Origin: a phage
DNA length: 64,000 bases
Direction: 5' to 3' (one strand)
Sequence record: NC_101835.1
Shown piece by piece: positions 4,464-6,894 of the stretch. The notes below the pieces were generated by a model, which made no database searches, was not told the origin of the DNA, and saw only the letters and a list, made by a program, of their open reading frames with translations. Numbering within the stretch: position 1 is the first letter of the stretch; each line of letters starts with the position of its first letter. The translations under genes were made by a program, and so were the position numbers.

Positions 4464-5585
4464 TTAGATAAAACGCTTGAGCATAGAAGGTGATGAGATT
4501 GATGGAATCACACAAGGAAGTGCTACCTCCTCTTTCTCCAGGAAATTAATCGCAGAAGCTACACAGTCAGCCCAGTCGTCTTTTCTGTTAAATGTTGATC
4601 TTTCCCCGTTGAATTTTTCAAGTTCGGTCAGAAATGCTTCCAGAGTATCAGGATGGAAACTGGATTTTACAATCCTTACCATTCCTTGTTGGGCAAGATT
4701 GGCAAAAGGTGAGAACCTTGTCAGTTTAGACTTGTTGGAAGGCATTGGGTCTTCTTCAACCCTAAACCCTTCGGCAAGCAAGGATCTGGAGGAGGTTAAG
4801 AACTCACTCTTACCTGCCTGACCGGGGTCCACAGAGAATACGATTATACAATCATCACCATCAAACTGCGCCTGTTTCCTGATGATCACATCTCGTTCAC
4901 CAGCCTTTTTACAGAACTTACCTTCCAGACCTGTGGAATACCTCCCGTTATCCACGTTCTCAGGACAATAATCACCGGACAGGTAATAAAAACCGTCGCT
5001 ATCTTTACTTACCTTAATACTGGCAGTAAAGTCAGGAAATTTATTACCGGAAGTTCTCTCGGTTCCTGCCTTATCCCATGCCCTGCAAGATACTGACCCA
5101 AGAGGTACTCTATCGGCATCACGAAGGAAAGATCTTTGAAAATAGTTTGCACCCTCAGGCTTTGCAAACCAGTTACCATGGAGAAGCTGAGCTTTTTCCA
5201 GCTCTGGTAGACCTTCGAGGAAAGCAAGGTATTCTGGGTTGTCTCTCAAACAGACAGGATTATCGAATATTGTTGCGCCTATGAACGAGAATGACAACGG
5301 TCTTGGCTTGATCTCTACGCCAAGTCCGTTAACCGTGGTGTATTTCTCTATCAACTCTTCTTTAGAGTCTCCCCAGATAAATTCACCGTCGCGTCGGATA
5401 AAATATCTTTTCTTACCGCATTTCTCCGGATCTGGATACCCTTCATCGTCCAACCACCATCTAACCAGTTTGGCAAGCATGTGTTCTGAATCGGGGTTAC
5501 AGCTGATAACCATTCTTGATGGATACTTTGACTGAGATCGCAGACGAGACATCAGATAGTCTATCTGCTCCCATTCGAATTGTGT
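4464..5585 (-). CDS. terL: terminase large subunit, exon 2 (C-terminal region incl. nuclease domain)
   Basis: Frame open upstream of Met to ~5588; sequence ...EWEQIDYLMSRLRSQSKYPSRMVISCNPDS fits terminase ATPase motif III and nuclease domain; continues reading frame of exon 1 after intron removal. Confidence 0.6.
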   Translation of the reverse strand, partial: TQFEWEQIDYLMSRLRSQSKYPSRMVISCNPDSEHMLAKLVRWWLDDEGYPDPEKCGKKRYFIRRDGEFIWGDSKEELIEKYTTVNGLGVEIKPRPLSFSFIGATIFDNPVCLRDNPEYLAFLEGLPELEKAQLLHGNWFAKPEGANYFQRSFLRDADRVPLGSVSCRAWDKAGTERTSGNKFPDFTASIKVSKDSDGFYYLSGDYCPENVDNGRYSTGLEGKFCKKAGERDVIIRKQAQFDGDDCIIVFSVDPGQAGKSEFLTSSRSLLAEGFRVEEDPMPSNKSKLTRFSPFANLAQQGMVRIVKSSFHPDTLEAFLTELEKFNGERSTFNRKDDWADCVASAINFLEKEEVALPCVIPSISSPSMLKRFI

Positions 5586-6468
5586 CGTTTATGTTCGGGC
5601 AAGGTCGCTAGTCTTGCCCCGCCATTTTCAGGCAGCTGCATGTCTCCATGCAGACCAGACTATATCTTATGAATGTGTAAATACTCTGCCGCTCTAAGAA
5701 TAGTTTCCTCATCCTCTTGGAAGAAACCTAAAGCTCTGTTGCATTTATCACAAAGCAACCCTCTTACAGCACCAGTTTTATGGTCATGATCAACACAAAA
5801 GAAATCTCTATACCCTTGCGTCCTATACTCATCAAGGGATATTCTACAAATGGCACACTTATGATCTTGATCTGAGAGTAGACGATAGTATTCATCTTTT
5901 GTTATGTGAAATTTCTTCTCAATCTGATAAAACTTTTCACACATCTTACACCTGTTCGTAACCAGATATACTTTACCATAGTCACGTTTTGTGTAAAAAC
6001 TATCAGCGAGCATACTTTCATGACAAGATTTGCATTCAAAAAGTTCACCTTTCTTCAGCAAGTCTTGAATAAACAATGCTGCGTCATCTCTCTTAACCAT
6101 ATTTTTGTTTTTACGAGATCCACCCTTCCTGTAGTACATATAGCATTCCTTGCATGTACCTGAGTATCCATCCTTGCTCTTAGATGATAAAAAGAAATCA
6201 TCAATAGGTAGAACTCTTTGGCAATCCATACATTTTTTAGTATTACACATTCACCCTCCCGTTTCGAATCGCTTGATTCTACGTCTTTCGACTAGTCGTT
6301 GAACGTTCATCCTCTCGGATGCTTCGCTGCGGATTATCTAAATTAACACACTGTTACCATACCTTCGATCTCTCTTCGAAGCCTCTGTCATGTTACCATG
6401 GCAGGTTGGTGGTGTCAATAATAAAGATTTCCCCGCAATTAGGGAGGTTTTACGAGAGCTACAAATTA
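5586..6468 (-). mobile_element. group-I-like intron in terminase large subunit gene, carrying HNH endonuclease ORF
   Basis: Terminase ORF ends GGT|TAA right after Walker B (VCFDEG) and resumes ~880 nt downstream; intervening segment holds an HNH ORF; upstream exon ends in T and intron ends in G, as at the nrdD introns; 3' boundary approximate. Confidence 0.5.
5660..6250 (-). CDS. HNH homing endonuclease (intron-encoded), endonuclease VII-like
   Basis: CxxC zinc-finger pairs and C-terminal motif CVDHDHKTGAVRGLLCDKCN typical of HNH/EndoVII nucleases. Confidence 0.7.
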   Translation of the reverse strand: MCNTKKCMDCQRVLPIDDFFLSSKSKDGYSGTCKECYMYYRKGGSRKNKNMVKRDDAALFIQDLLKKGELFECKSCHESMLADSFYTKRDYGKVYLVTNRCKMCEKFYQIEKKFHITKDEYYRLLSDQDHKCAICRISLDEYRTQGYRDFFCVDHDHKTGAVRGLLCDKCNRALGFFQEDEETILRAAEYLHIHKI

Positions 6469-6894
6469 ACCCTCATCGAAGCAAACCATGGTGTACTCAA
6501 GCCCCTGATGGTTAAGCTTATCTTGTACATACTCCATATGGCAGTATTTTACAACAGCTCCCTTTTTGCTTCTATCCCACTTGCCAGTGTTCGGATCAAA
6601 CCGTGGAAAAATGAACTTATGATCCTTCTCTCTGAACTTTGGCTTAATGTTTTCAGGCAGATCACTATAAATAGCTACTGCTTTAGGCCATAGTCCACCC
6701 TCACCTTCCAACTGTGGGGTTGTTCTTCGGAACATAACCACAGAGCTGTGGGGGTCATCAATAATTTTAAGTGGCATCAACTGCAAGAGGAACGACTTGC
6801 CAGACCCTGCGGCACCGCCGATTACCAAAATATCTGCATCGTTTTCGAGGATCATCTTCTGCTTTTCAGAGCACGGTCCGTAAATCTTAGACAT
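6469..6894 (-). CDS. terL: terminase large subunit, exon 1 (ATPase N-terminus)
   Basis: Walker A GGAAGSGKS and Walker B-like MVCFDE; frame terminates directly after DEG. Confidence 0.7.

What the first reader, a model, noticed from the sequence alone, without database searches (positions are those of the whole stretch)
4464..6894. Large terminase gene split by a group-I-like intron carrying an HNH endonuclease
The ATPase exon (Walker A GGAAGSGKS, Walker B VCFDE) stops right after DEG; ~880 nt downstream the frame resumes with terminase-like sequence through motif III and the nuclease domain. The intervening segment encodes an HNH/EndoVII-type endonuclease. The upstream exon ends in T and the intron in G, as at the nrdD introns. 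An intron in an essential packaging gene implies splicing-dependent late gene expression.
Basis: partly seen in the sequence, partly recalled or inferred. Interest (0 to 1): 0.7.

Follow-up and report, generated by a model that had tools for sequence, protein, structure and literature searches.

The report
Known self-splicing intron in terminase gene
The DNA-packaging (large terminase) gene of this rV5-like E. coli phage really is interrupted by an 883-base group I intron that carries its own homing endonuclease gene, but this same intron and endonuclease are already published and annotated in close relatives, so the finding is correct and ordinary.

Summary
The observation and the interpretation both hold, but the feature is already known.

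**What is there (minus strand)**
- terL exon 1 is 6894..6469. It has Walker A GGAAGSGKS and Walker B VCFDE, and ends GGU.
- An 883-nt intron lies at 6468..5586. It starts UAA and ends in G.
- terL exon 2 is 5585..4464.

**Evidence for an intron**
- Rfam's group I model matches at 50.3 bits (threshold 50, E 8e-10).
- A natural ORF-less 319-nt allele in sister phages scores 84.3 bits.
- Conceptual splicing gives a 515-aa TerL colinear with the uninterrupted FV3 TerL, with no gap.
- P1 (with the U·G splice-site pair), P3 to P9.2 and the subgroup-IA stems P7.1/P7.2 can all be placed.

**The endonuclease**
- The ORF at 6250..5660 sits in the P8 loop and is an Endonuclease VII / DHHRN-type enzyme (Pfam PF02945, 2e-21).

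**Variation among relatives**
- Vequintaviruses carry the intron with the endonuclease gene, the intron without it, or no intron, even within one species.
- All 12 intron-bearing alleles sampled have T at -1 and A at +3. All 9 intron-less alleles have C/A and G.

**Prior knowledge**
- The rV5 genome paper (2013) has a section "Introns in terminase".
- BASEL and LL12 records annotate the joined CDS.
- The 2018 F-CphI paper lists the identical JES2013 protein as intron-encoded.

Splicing of this particular intron has not been shown by RNA data in the literature I could search.

The parts
6469..6894 (-). terL exon 1: 142 codons, Walker A GGAAGSGKS, Walker B VCFDE, last codon GGU (Gly142)
   Evidence: ORF list. 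Pfam Terminase_6N profile positions 2-104. Aligns to FV3 up to window 6470, plus one variable wobble base.
5586..6468 (-). Group I intron, 883 nt, subgroup IA-like. It starts UAAUUUGUAGCUCUC, so an in-frame UAA closes the exon 1 frame at intron nt 1-3. It ends AUAAACG, with the terminal G at 5586.
   Evidence: RF00028 at 50.3 bits, E 8.1e-10. Exact absence in FV3, PDX and other alleles. The ORF-less allele scores 84.3 bits and folds with z = -5.7.
4464..5585 (-). terL exon 2: 373 codons plus stop. Begins ACA CAA UUC (TQFEWEQIDYLMSRLRS...); holds the rest of the ATPase domain and the RNaseH-like nuclease domain.
5660..6250 (-). Intron-encoded homing endonuclease, 196 aa. It has two N-terminal CxxC...CxxC modules and a C-terminal Endo VII / DHHRN catalytic domain (CAIC, DHDH at residue 154, R, CDKCN).
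   Evidence: Pfam PF02945 at 2e-21. Motifs located. 100% identical to the JES2013 protein, which PMC6083498 lists as intron-encoded.
6454..6474 (-). P1: exon GAGGGU plus intron UA (6474-6467) pairs with the internal guide UAGCUCUC (6461-6454). U6469·G6459 is the splice-site wobble pair.
   Evidence: 8 of 8 pairs. Rfam alignment. Reproduced by the unconstrained MFE fold of the ORF-less allele.
6303..6447 (-). P3 5' strand CCUCCC (6447-6442), then the P4-P6 domain: P4 UGCGGG 6437-6432 / UCCGCA 6333-6328, an extended P5 arm with GNRA-looped hairpins, and P6/P6a 6327-6303.
   Evidence: Covarying pairs in the P5 hairpin are C69-G80 to U-A and G67-C82 to A-U among alleles, by my own reading of the differences printed.
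6255..6297 (-). P7 5' strand GACUA (6297-6293); P7.1 GUC-GAAA-GAC (6292-6283); P7.2 GAAUC-AAGC-GAUUC (6279-6266); P3 3' strand GGGAGG (6260-6255), which is also the Shine-Dalgarno sequence of the endonuclease gene.
   Evidence: The 29-nt insert between P7 and P3 appears in the Rfam alignment.
6243..6254 (-). P8 5' strand GUGAAUGUGUAA. It contains the endonuclease start codon AUG (6250-6248).
   Evidence: 12 of 12 pairs with 5680-5669.
5658..5680 (-). P8 3' strand UUACACAUUCAU (5680-5669), J8/7 AAGAUA, and P7 3' strand UAGUC (5662-5658). The last 7 codons of the endonuclease ORF and its UAG stop (5662-5660) lie in these core elements.
   Evidence: The AAGAUAUAGUC consensus is matched in the Rfam alignment.
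5597..5653 (-). P9 (CUGCAUG-GAGA-CAUGCAG, 5653-5636), P9.1 (5633-5621) and P9.2 (GGGCAAG/CUUGCCC, 5619-5597).
5268..5272 (-). Empty site for a second terL intron (between codons 248 and 249, ...ATI|FDNP). rV5, HdK5 and PDX have an intron of about 980 nt here with an I-HmuI-like HNH ORF.

Best explanation
The window comes from an rV5-like E. coli myophage (genus Vequintavirus).

**What it is.** Its large terminase gene (terL, minus strand) is interrupted directly after the Walker B codons (VCFDE-G) by an 883-nt subgroup-IA group I intron at 6468..5586.

**How TerL is made (inferred).**
- The pre-mRNA folds into the ribozyme core.
- The last exon base, U6469, pairs with G6459 of the internal guide in P1.
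- An external guanosine attacks after that U.
- The freed exon 1 3'-OH attacks after the terminal G (5586).
- Ligation joins GGU to ACA and gives mRNA for a 515-aa TerL.
- Without splicing, translation stops at the UAA formed by intron nt 1-3.

**The endonuclease.**
- The P8 loop holds a 196-aa Endo VII / DHHRN-family homing endonuclease gene.
- Its Shine-Dalgarno sequence is the 3' strand of P3.
- Its AUG lies in the 5' strand of P8.
- Its last 7 codons and stop lie in the P8 3' strand, J8/7 and P7.
- The folded ribozyme and translation of the endonuclease are therefore mutually exclusive on one RNA molecule.
- In mixed infections the enzyme is expected to cut or nick intron-less terL alleles. 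Repair from the intron-bearing genome would then copy in the intron together with the flanking synonymous bases.

**Shown versus inferred.**
- Shown here: the anatomy, the ribozyme-model match, exact colinearity with intron-less alleles, and presence/absence polymorphism.
- Inferred: splicing in vivo, endonuclease activity and its target, and the interplay between translation and RNA folding.
For: **Identity of the phage**
- 99.1% identical to Escherichia phage DrSchubert. About 120 Vequintavirus records match at 90% or more.

**Ribozyme**
- RF00028 scores 50.3 bits against a gathering score of 50, E 8.1e-10 for the whole window.
- The same intron without the ORF (JohannBauhin, 319 nt) scores 84.3 bits, E 9e-21.
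- A diverged copy at the same site in a phage whose TerL is 75-86% identical by segment (L010) scores 81.4 bits.
- All helices have full Watson-Crick/GU complementarity.
- The unconstrained MFE fold reproduces P1, P3, P4, P5, P6a, P7.1, P7.2 and P9-P9.2, with z = -5.7.
- Two base pairs in the P5 hairpin covary among alleles (my reading).
- The 3' part is 82% identical over about 79 nt to sequence under thymidylate synthase genes of T4-like phages, which I take to be the td intron. Another part is 72-74% identical over 109 nt to the nrdB/I-TevIII region.

**Boundaries**
- Intron-less alleles (FV3, PDX, ime, PMBT16, EmilHeitz, ECP32, S127) lack exactly these 883 nt.
- The spliced TerL is 515 aa, the same length as FV3 TerL, about 99% identical and without a gap.
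- The peptide across the junction is contiguous and conserved in intron-less homologues down to about 37% identity.

**Endonuclease**
- PF02945 at 76.1 bits.
- CxxC / DHDH / R / CxxCN are intact.
- The ORF is intact in 6 of 7 ORF-bearing alleles examined (the window plus six others) and frameshifted in one.

**Mobility signature**
- About 29 records carry the intron with the ORF. Others carry the ORF-less intron or no intron.
- The states differ within one species: in Vequintavirus murica, naswa and LL12 have the ORF-less intron and ime has none.
- T at -1 and A at +3 are perfectly linked to intron presence (12 of 12 against 0 of 9).

**Literature**
- The rV5 paper describes terL introns.
- The rV5 RefSeq CDS is a 3-piece join.
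- BASEL and LL12 records annotate 2-piece joins.
- RT-PCR shows splicing of a terL intron in the related Certrevirus CB7.
Against: - No RNA data for this intron exist in the window or in the papers I could search. Splicing is therefore inferred.
- The window's own Rfam score is only just above threshold (50.3 against 50), because the 562-nt ORF in the P8 loop is penalised.
- P2 is absent. P10 is weak, at most 3 pairs and not conserved in L010. The window's copy also has a C·A mismatch in one P5 hairpin that other alleles lack.
- The CB7 intron that was shown to splice is a different intron, 6 nt upstream, with a different endonuclease. It supports the idea only by analogy.
- Comparison with intron-less alleles alone would allow the boundaries to slide by one base. 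Group I rules (U at -1, terminal G) decide between the two options.
Confidence: 0.93

Rival explanations
1. The gene is split but not spliced. The endonuclease gene behaves as a free-standing insertion, and TerL is made as two polypeptides (142 aa and about 362 aa) that assemble after translation, as reported for Aeromonas phage Aeh1 NrdA split by mobE.
For: - Many GenBank records annotate two separate 'terminase large subunit' CDSs.
- The CB7 paper reports one HNH-associated interruption that did not splice and cites the Aeh1 precedent.
- The downstream ORF does have an ATG, at 5552.
Against: - A complete ribozyme core surrounds the ORF. It is kept, at 84 and 81 bits, in alleles that have lost or never had the ORF.
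- The ATG at 5552 lies 11 codons inside conserved TerL sequence. TQFEWEQIDYL is conserved in homologues.
- The same bases are present in intron-less alleles, so the ATG was not selected as a start codon.
- The split falls in the middle of one ATPase domain, directly after Walker B.
Confidence: 0.03
2. The intron is a decaying remnant that no longer self-splices efficiently, and depends on host or phage factors or on a trans-acting activity. Alternatively, this terL copy is a pseudogene.
For: - The window's Rfam score is borderline.
- There is one C·A mismatch in a P5 hairpin that is unique to this allele.
- There is no P2 and P10 is weak (and my own pairing analysis).
Against: - No second terL was seen in the part of the window examined.
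- Phages carrying essentially the same intron-bearing allele (99.1% identical for DrSchubert; also JES2013, APCEc02) are deposited as complete genomes with named E. coli hosts, so I assume they are viable isolates.
- The exons have no frameshift and are about 99% identical to FV3 TerL.
- All core helices are intact.
Confidence: 0.03
3. The insertion is some other kind of intervening element: an intein, a group II intron, or a translational bypass or frameshift site.
For: None, beyond the bare fact that the reading frame is interrupted.
Against: - The exon 1 frame hits UAA at the first intron codon, and the insert is not one open frame, so it is not an intein.
- 883 nt is not a multiple of 3.
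- The only Rfam family matched in 5300..6700 at E up to 1 is the group I intron family.
Confidence: 0.01

Closest known systems
terL introns of Escherichia phage rV5 (Kropinski et al. 2013, PMC3606486, section 'Introns in terminase'; RefSeq NC_011041 rv5_gp065, a 3-piece join)
   Same: Same genus, same gene, same insertion site after VCFDEG, and the same ribozyme. The ORF-less allele sequenced here (JohannBauhin) is nearly identical outside P8. The rV5 terL span of 2846 nt equals 1548 + 319 + 979 nt.
   Different: By that span arithmetic, rV5 carries the 319-nt ORF-less form at this site and has a second intron (with an I-HmuI-like HNH ORF) at codon 248/249. The window carries the 883-nt ORF-bearing form at site 1 and has site 2 empty.
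BASEL phages DrSchubert, MaxBurger and WalterGehring (Maffei et al. 2021, PMC8594841), and phage 2 JES-2013
   Same: The identical arrangement. The terL CDS is annotated as a 2-piece join with an internal 'putative homing endonuclease'. DNA is 98-99% identical, and the endonuclease protein is 100% identical in DrSchubert and JES2013.
   Different: Only point differences. The window's exact sequence is not in the phage collection; the best match is 99.1%.
DHHRN (Endo VII-motif) homing endonuclease family, type member F-CphI of cyanophage S-PM2 (Fang et al. 2018, PMC6083498)
   Same: C-terminal Endo VII catalytic motif CxxC...DHDH...R...CxxC-N. That paper lists the 'Escherichia phage 2 JES-2013' protein among four intron-encoded myovirus members, and the JES2013 protein is identical to the window's.
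   Different: F-CphI is free-standing beside an ORF-less psbA intron ('collaborative homing'), whereas this enzyme is encoded inside the intron's P8 loop. The N-terminal region here has two CxxC...CxxC modules. Sequence identity to other Endo VII-family phage proteins is below 60%; listed examples are 27-47%.
Introns in the td and nrdB genes of T4-like phages (subgroup IA2 by my recollection)
   Same: - The 3' core (J8/7, P7, P9 region) is 82% identical over about 79 nt to sequence under thymidylate synthase genes.
- The P6/P7 region is 72-74% identical over 109 nt to the nrdB/I-TevIII region.
- P7.1/P7.2 are present.
- An in-frame stop codon lies right at the start of the intron.
- The intron carries a homing endonuclease gene.
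   Different: A different host gene. The ORF is in P8 rather than in P6 (td), which I state from memory and did not test. The endonuclease family differs (GIY-YIG I-TevI, HNH I-TevIII). No P2 here.
terL intron of Pectobacterium phage CB7 (Certrevirus, Vequintavirinae), shown to splice by RT-PCR and cDNA sequencing (PMC7344957)
   Same: Same subfamily, same gene, and the same target (Walker B motif). It also carries an endonuclease gene. The exon ends in T and the intron in G.
   Different: The insertion point is 6 nt upstream, between D and E (VD|EGTQF). The intron sequence is unrelated at its ends, and the ORF is annotated as HNH rather than Endo VII.
[quoted passage not shown]
   Same: Group I introns interrupting terL are a recurrent, documented phenomenon.
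   Different: These are unrelated phage lineages. Their sites and intron sequences were not compared here.

Membership tests
Group I catalytic intron (Rfam RF00028) | Covariance-model score at or above the curated gathering score | tested here: met
   Window 6478..5636 (-) scores 50.3 bits against 50, E 8.1e-10. The ORF-less allele scores 84.3 bits. The diverged allele L010 scores 81.4 bits.
Group I catalytic intron (Rfam RF00028) | 5' splice site follows a U that forms a U·G wobble with the internal guide sequence in P1 | tested here: met
   GAGGGU|UA pairs with UAGCUCUC, 8 of 8 pairs, with U6469·G6459. All 12 intron-bearing alleles have T at -1, while the 9 intron-less alleles have C or A.
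Group I catalytic intron (Rfam RF00028) | Intron ends in G (omega G) immediately before the 3' exon | tested here: met
   ...AUAAACG|ACACAA, with the G at 5586. The boundary is fixed by intron-less alleles to within one base.
Group I catalytic intron (Rfam RF00028) | Conserved core: P3-P8 and P4-P6 domains, with the P3/P7 pseudoknot and J8/7 | tested here: met
   P3 6/6, P4 6/6, P7 GACUA/UAGUC 5/5 and P8 12/12 pairs. J8/7-P7 AAGAUAUAGUC matches the consensus.
Group I catalytic intron (Rfam RF00028) | P10 pairing between the internal guide and the 3' exon | tested here: inconclusive
   At most 3 pairs (exon ACA with intron U6 G7 U8, offset by one base), and these are not kept in L010. This is my own pairing analysis on the sequences.
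Group I catalytic intron (Rfam RF00028) | GTP-dependent self-splicing, or a spliced junction in RNA | not testable with these tools
   No RNA data. The literature search found none for Vequintavirus terL.
Subgroup IA group I introns | Extra stems P7.1 and P7.2 between P7 and the 3' strand of P3 | tested here: met
   GUC-GAAA-GAC (6292-6283) and GAAUC-AAGC-GAUUC (6279-6266). Similarity to T4-like td/nrdB gene regions. Assignment to IA2 specifically was not tested.
Large terminase subunit (Pfam Terminase_6N + Terminase_6C) | N-terminal ATPase with Walker A and B, plus a C-terminal RNaseH-like nuclease, in one polypeptide | tested here: met
   The spliced protein matches PF03237 at 6.2e-20 (residues 25-294) and PF17289 at 5.1e-06 (394-489). 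It is 515 aa and about 99% identical to the FV3 protein annotated as terminase large subunit.
DHHRN / Endonuclease VII-motif homing endonucleases | CX2-4C ... DHDH ... R ... CX2C-N catalytic motif at the C-terminus | tested here: met
   PF02945 at 76.1 bits against a cut-off of 23.6, residues 110-192. CAIC at 132, DHDH at 154, AVRG, and CDKCN at 167. Motif definition is from PMC6083498.
DHHRN / Endonuclease VII-motif homing endonucleases | Site-specific cleavage of the intron-less allele, and homing | not testable with these tools
   Only indirect evidence: presence/absence polymorphism within a species, and perfectly linked flanking synonymous changes.

The most novel reading that the evidence does not exclude
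The most novel reading that the evidence still allows has two parts.

- The overlap of the endonuclease's ribosome-binding site, start codon and stop codon with P3, P8 and P7, together with the UAA at intron nt 1-3, could act as a real switch. It would make TerL production (splicing) and endonuclease production (translation of unfolded RNA) alternative fates of each transcript, and so help time DNA packaging.
- The two perfectly linked synonymous bases at -1 and +3 could make intron-bearing and spliced-out alleles immune to cleavage. The Walker B codons would then be the homing target, and ORF-less introns could spread by 'collaborative' homing, using the enzyme supplied by co-infecting phages.
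Probability: 0.15. Interest if true: 0.35.

Novelty: already known. Interest (0 to 1): 0.12.

Why it matters
**Practical value**
- Annotation pipelines still often split this gene. Many GenBank records list two 'terminase large subunit' CDSs plus an 'endonuclease VII'.
- terL is a standard phylogenetic marker, so the exact exon and intron coordinates matter for annotation and for tree building.

**Biological value**
- It is a clean natural example of the homing-endonuclease life cycle: an intron with an intact endonuclease gene, one with a frameshifted gene, an ORF-less intron, and an empty site, all within one phage genus.
- It also shows an essential ATPase motif being used as a homing target.

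None of this changes current understanding.

Tried and rejected
1. **Promoter for the endonuclease.** A sigma-70-like TTGACA-17-TAACAT at 6418..6390 lies inside the intron, upstream of the endonuclease gene. I tested whether it is linked to ORF presence. It is also present in the ORF-less naswa allele, and the scan found 11 sites against 7.2 expected, so I dropped the idea.
2. **+3 A needed for P10.** Rejected. P10 is at most 3 pairs, G at +3 would still pair (G·U), and the guide base differs in L010.
3. **CB7 as direct proof of splicing.** Rejected. The CB7 intron, which was shown to splice by RT-PCR, sits 6 nt upstream and is a different intron with a different ORF. It supports the case only by analogy.
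4. **Small plus large terminase, or a non-spliced split gene.** Rejected on domain complementarity, the conserved junction peptide and the ribozyme core.
5. **Intein.** Rejected because of the stop codon at the first intron codon and a length that is not a multiple of 3.
6. **RNA evidence in the literature.** Three searches for splicing data on Vequintavirus terL found none.
7. **Tools deliberately not used.** I did not run the large protein-database searches, structure prediction or fold search. The identification was already unambiguous and they would not have changed the verdict.
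Full report
**1. What is in the sequence**

On the minus strand, three ORFs lie head to tail.
- 6894..6466 (142 aa) contains VIGGAAGSGKSF and ends MVCFDEG followed by a stop codon.
- 6250..5660 is 196 aa.
- 5552..4464 is 362 aa.

Pfam places the first ORF on Terminase_6N profile positions 2-104. It places the third on positions 117-211, plus the Terminase_6C nuclease domain. The middle ORF matches Endonuclease_7 (PF02945, E 2e-21). The two outer ORFs are therefore complementary halves of one large terminase. They are not a small and a large subunit.

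**2. Is there a ribozyme?**

Yes.
- A gathering-threshold Rfam scan of the whole window finds one Group I intron match, at 6478..5636 on the minus strand (50.3 bits, threshold 50, E 8.1e-10).
- It is the only family matched in 5300..6700 at E up to 1.
- The score is low only because a 562-nt ORF sits in the P8 loop. Sister phages carry the same intron without the ORF (319 nt), and that allele scores 84.3 bits, E 9e-21.
- A diverged copy at the same site, in a metagenomic phage whose TerL is 75-86% identical by segment, scores 81.4 bits.
- An unconstrained fold of the ORF-less allele reproduces P1, P3, P4, the P5 arm, P6a, P7.1, P7.2, P9, P9.1 and P9.2, with z = -5.7 against shuffles.

All helices can be placed with full complementarity:

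| Helix | Window coordinates (minus strand) |
|---|---|
| P1 | 6474-6467 / 6461-6454 |
| P3 | 6447-6442 / 6260-6255 |
| P4 | 6437-6432 / 6333-6328 |
| P7 | 6297-6293 / 5662-5658 |
| P7.1 | 6292-6283 |
| P7.2 | 6279-6266 |
| P8 | 6254-6243 / 5680-5669 |
| P9 | 5653-5636 |
| P9.2 | 5619-5597 |

Stems P7.1 and P7.2 mark subgroup IA. The core is 82% identical over about 79 nt to sequence under thymidylate synthase genes of T4-like phages, which I take to be the td intron. It is 72-74% identical over 109 nt to their nrdB/I-TevIII region. Two pairs in a GNRA-capped P5 hairpin covary among alleles, C-G to U-A and G-C to A-U (my reading).

**3. Exact boundaries**

The window is an rV5-like Vequintavirus. 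Its best match is Escherichia phage DrSchubert at 99.1%, and about 120 related records match at 90% or more.

Intron-less relatives (FV3, PDX, ime, PMBT16, EmilHeitz, ECP32, S127) align up to window 6470 and again from 5585, with one variable wobble base between. With the group I rules (U before the 5' splice site, G as the last intron base), the intron is 6468..5586, 883 nt.
- 5' junction: ...GAUGAGGGU|UAAUUUGUAGCUCUC...
- 3' junction: ...AUAAACG|ACACAAUUC...

Splicing gives a 515-aa protein of the same length as FV3 TerL, about 99% identical and with no gap. The peptide across the junction (hhhDEGTQFEW.QI.YL.SRLRS....CNPD) is contiguous and conserved in intron-less homologues down to about 37% identity. 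The first ATG of the downstream ORF (5552) lies 11 codons inside this conserved stretch. That argues against independent translation of exon 2.

**4. The endonuclease and its fit in the RNA**

The 196-aa ORF has two N-terminal CxxC...CxxC modules. Its C-terminal Endo VII motif is intact: CAIC, DHDH, R and CDKCN.
- Its Shine-Dalgarno GGAGG is the 3' strand of P3.
- Its AUG (6250) is in the 5' strand of P8.
- Its last seven codons and UAG stop lie in the P8 3' strand, J8/7 and the first bases of the P7 3' strand.

Folding of the ribozyme should therefore occlude translation initiation, and translation should unfold the core. That is an inference, not a result.

The exon 1 frame closes at UAA, intron nt 1-3. 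I recall a similar in-frame stop at the start of the T4 td intron, but I did not test that here.

In the ORF-less allele, 584 nt (6254..5671) are replaced by a 20-nt segment that sits in the P8 position (AAGCG-GUUGUUGU-CGCUU by my reading of the sequence). The rest of the intron is nearly identical. Intron and endonuclease gene thus behave as separable modules.

**5. Population picture**

In the phage collection:
- About 29 records carry the intron with the ORF.
- A further set carries the ORF-less intron. 52 records cover at least 80% of the 319-nt query and 64 match at 95% or more.
- The remainder of the roughly 120 records have no intron.

The states differ within one species. In Vequintavirus murica, naswa and LL12 have the ORF-less form and ime has none. 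One metagenomic copy has a frameshifted endonuclease gene.

In 21 alleles compared base by base, all 12 intron-bearing ones have T at -1 and A at +3. All 9 intron-less ones have C or A at -1 and G at +3. All of these changes are synonymous.
- T at -1 is what the U·G pair in P1 requires.
- A at +3 is not needed for the weak P10. It is better explained by co-conversion or by protection of the homing site.

**6. What was already known**

- The rV5 genome paper has a section 'Introns in terminase' and thanks David Shub for locating the intron. The rV5 RefSeq terL is a 3-piece join. Its 2846-nt span equals the coding sequence plus the 319-nt ORF-less intron at this site plus a 979-nt intron with an HNH ORF at codon 248/249.
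- The LL12 announcement and its GenBank record call terL intron-containing.
- The BASEL records annotate exactly the window's arrangement, a 2-piece join with an internal 'putative homing endonuclease'.
- The paper defining the DHHRN (Endo VII-motif) homing endonuclease family lists the phage 2 JES-2013 protein as intron-encoded. That protein is identical to the window's.
- Splicing of a terL intron was shown by RT-PCR in Certrevirus CB7. That intron lies 6 nt upstream and is a different element.
- terL group I introns are also reported in LL-H, Bastillevirinae, Twort-like and crAss-like phages.
- I found no RNA-level evidence for this specific intron.

**7. Verdict**

The novelty class is 'already known'. 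The only open point is experimental: splicing and endonuclease activity are inferred, with confidence about 0.93 for the self-splicing, mobile-intron explanation. 'Splicing-dependent late expression' is true only in the sense that full-length TerL needs splicing, and nothing indicates regulation. Interest is low, at 0.12.

Noticed in passing
window 32014-35171 (+): nrdD is in three pieces: 32014-32877, 33186-33440 and 34164-35171, covering Pfam NRDD profile positions 1-154, 180-263 and 263-562. The first gap has a sub-threshold group I hit (32865-33121, 30.1 bits). The second gap holds an I-HmuI/HNH_3-like ORF (33492-34043) and a partial group I hit (34038-34143, 35.3 bits).
   Followed up: partly
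window 5268-5272 (-); L002 2230-3211; L005 1147-2128; L050: A second terL intron site (codon 248/249, ATI|FDNP) is empty in the window. In rV5, HdK5 and PDX it is filled by an intron of about 980 nt with an I-HmuI-like HNH ORF. The Rfam hits there are sub-threshold, at 24-35 bits.
   Followed up: partly
IMG/VR loci L009-L011, L016, L017, L030, L031, L035: TerL genes of this family are interrupted at five or more distinct places (about aa 30, 131/132, 140-143, 248/249 and 479/480). Strong group I hits reach 94.7 bits, and L035 has three group I hits in one 8-kb locus. terL is a repeated intron target in this clade.
   Followed up: partly
L039 (Pectobacterium phage CB7) 382-1350: The CB7 terL intron, shown to splice by RT-PCR, sits between D and E of Walker B (VD|EGTQF). 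That is 6 nt upstream of the window's site, with an unrelated intron sequence and an HNH ORF. Two different introns therefore target the same ATPase motif in sister genera.
   Followed up: yes
GenBank MG0656xx records: 18 records named 'Campylobacter phage', with host given as C. jejuni, are about 98% identical to E. coli vequintaviruses across terL and carry the same intron states. The host labels look doubtful.
   Followed up: no
window 8044-9156 (-): A tRNA cluster: five tRNA hits at 8435-9156, plus tRNA-Sec-model hits at 8790-8876 and 8995-9077 that are probably long-arm tRNAs (rV5 annotates tRNA-Ser and tRNA-Tyr in its corresponding cluster). A 113-aa HNH ORF at 8044-8385 lies next to it.
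   Followed up: no
window 35281-36213 (+): A 310-aa ORF directly after nrdD has duplicated DUF723/treble-clef zinc-finger modules and a T5orf172 domain. It may be another mobile nuclease-like gene.
   Followed up: no
window 6390-6418 (-): A sigma-70-like TTGACA-17-(TG)TAACAT lies inside the intron's P5 arm, upstream of the endonuclease gene. It is also present in an ORF-less allele, so it is not linked to the ORF. It may be a chance match.
   Followed up: yes
window about 12000-14000 and about 52000: GC skew changes sign at about 12-14 kb and about 52 kb. This probably reflects switches in gene orientation between minus-strand and plus-strand blocks.
   Followed up: no
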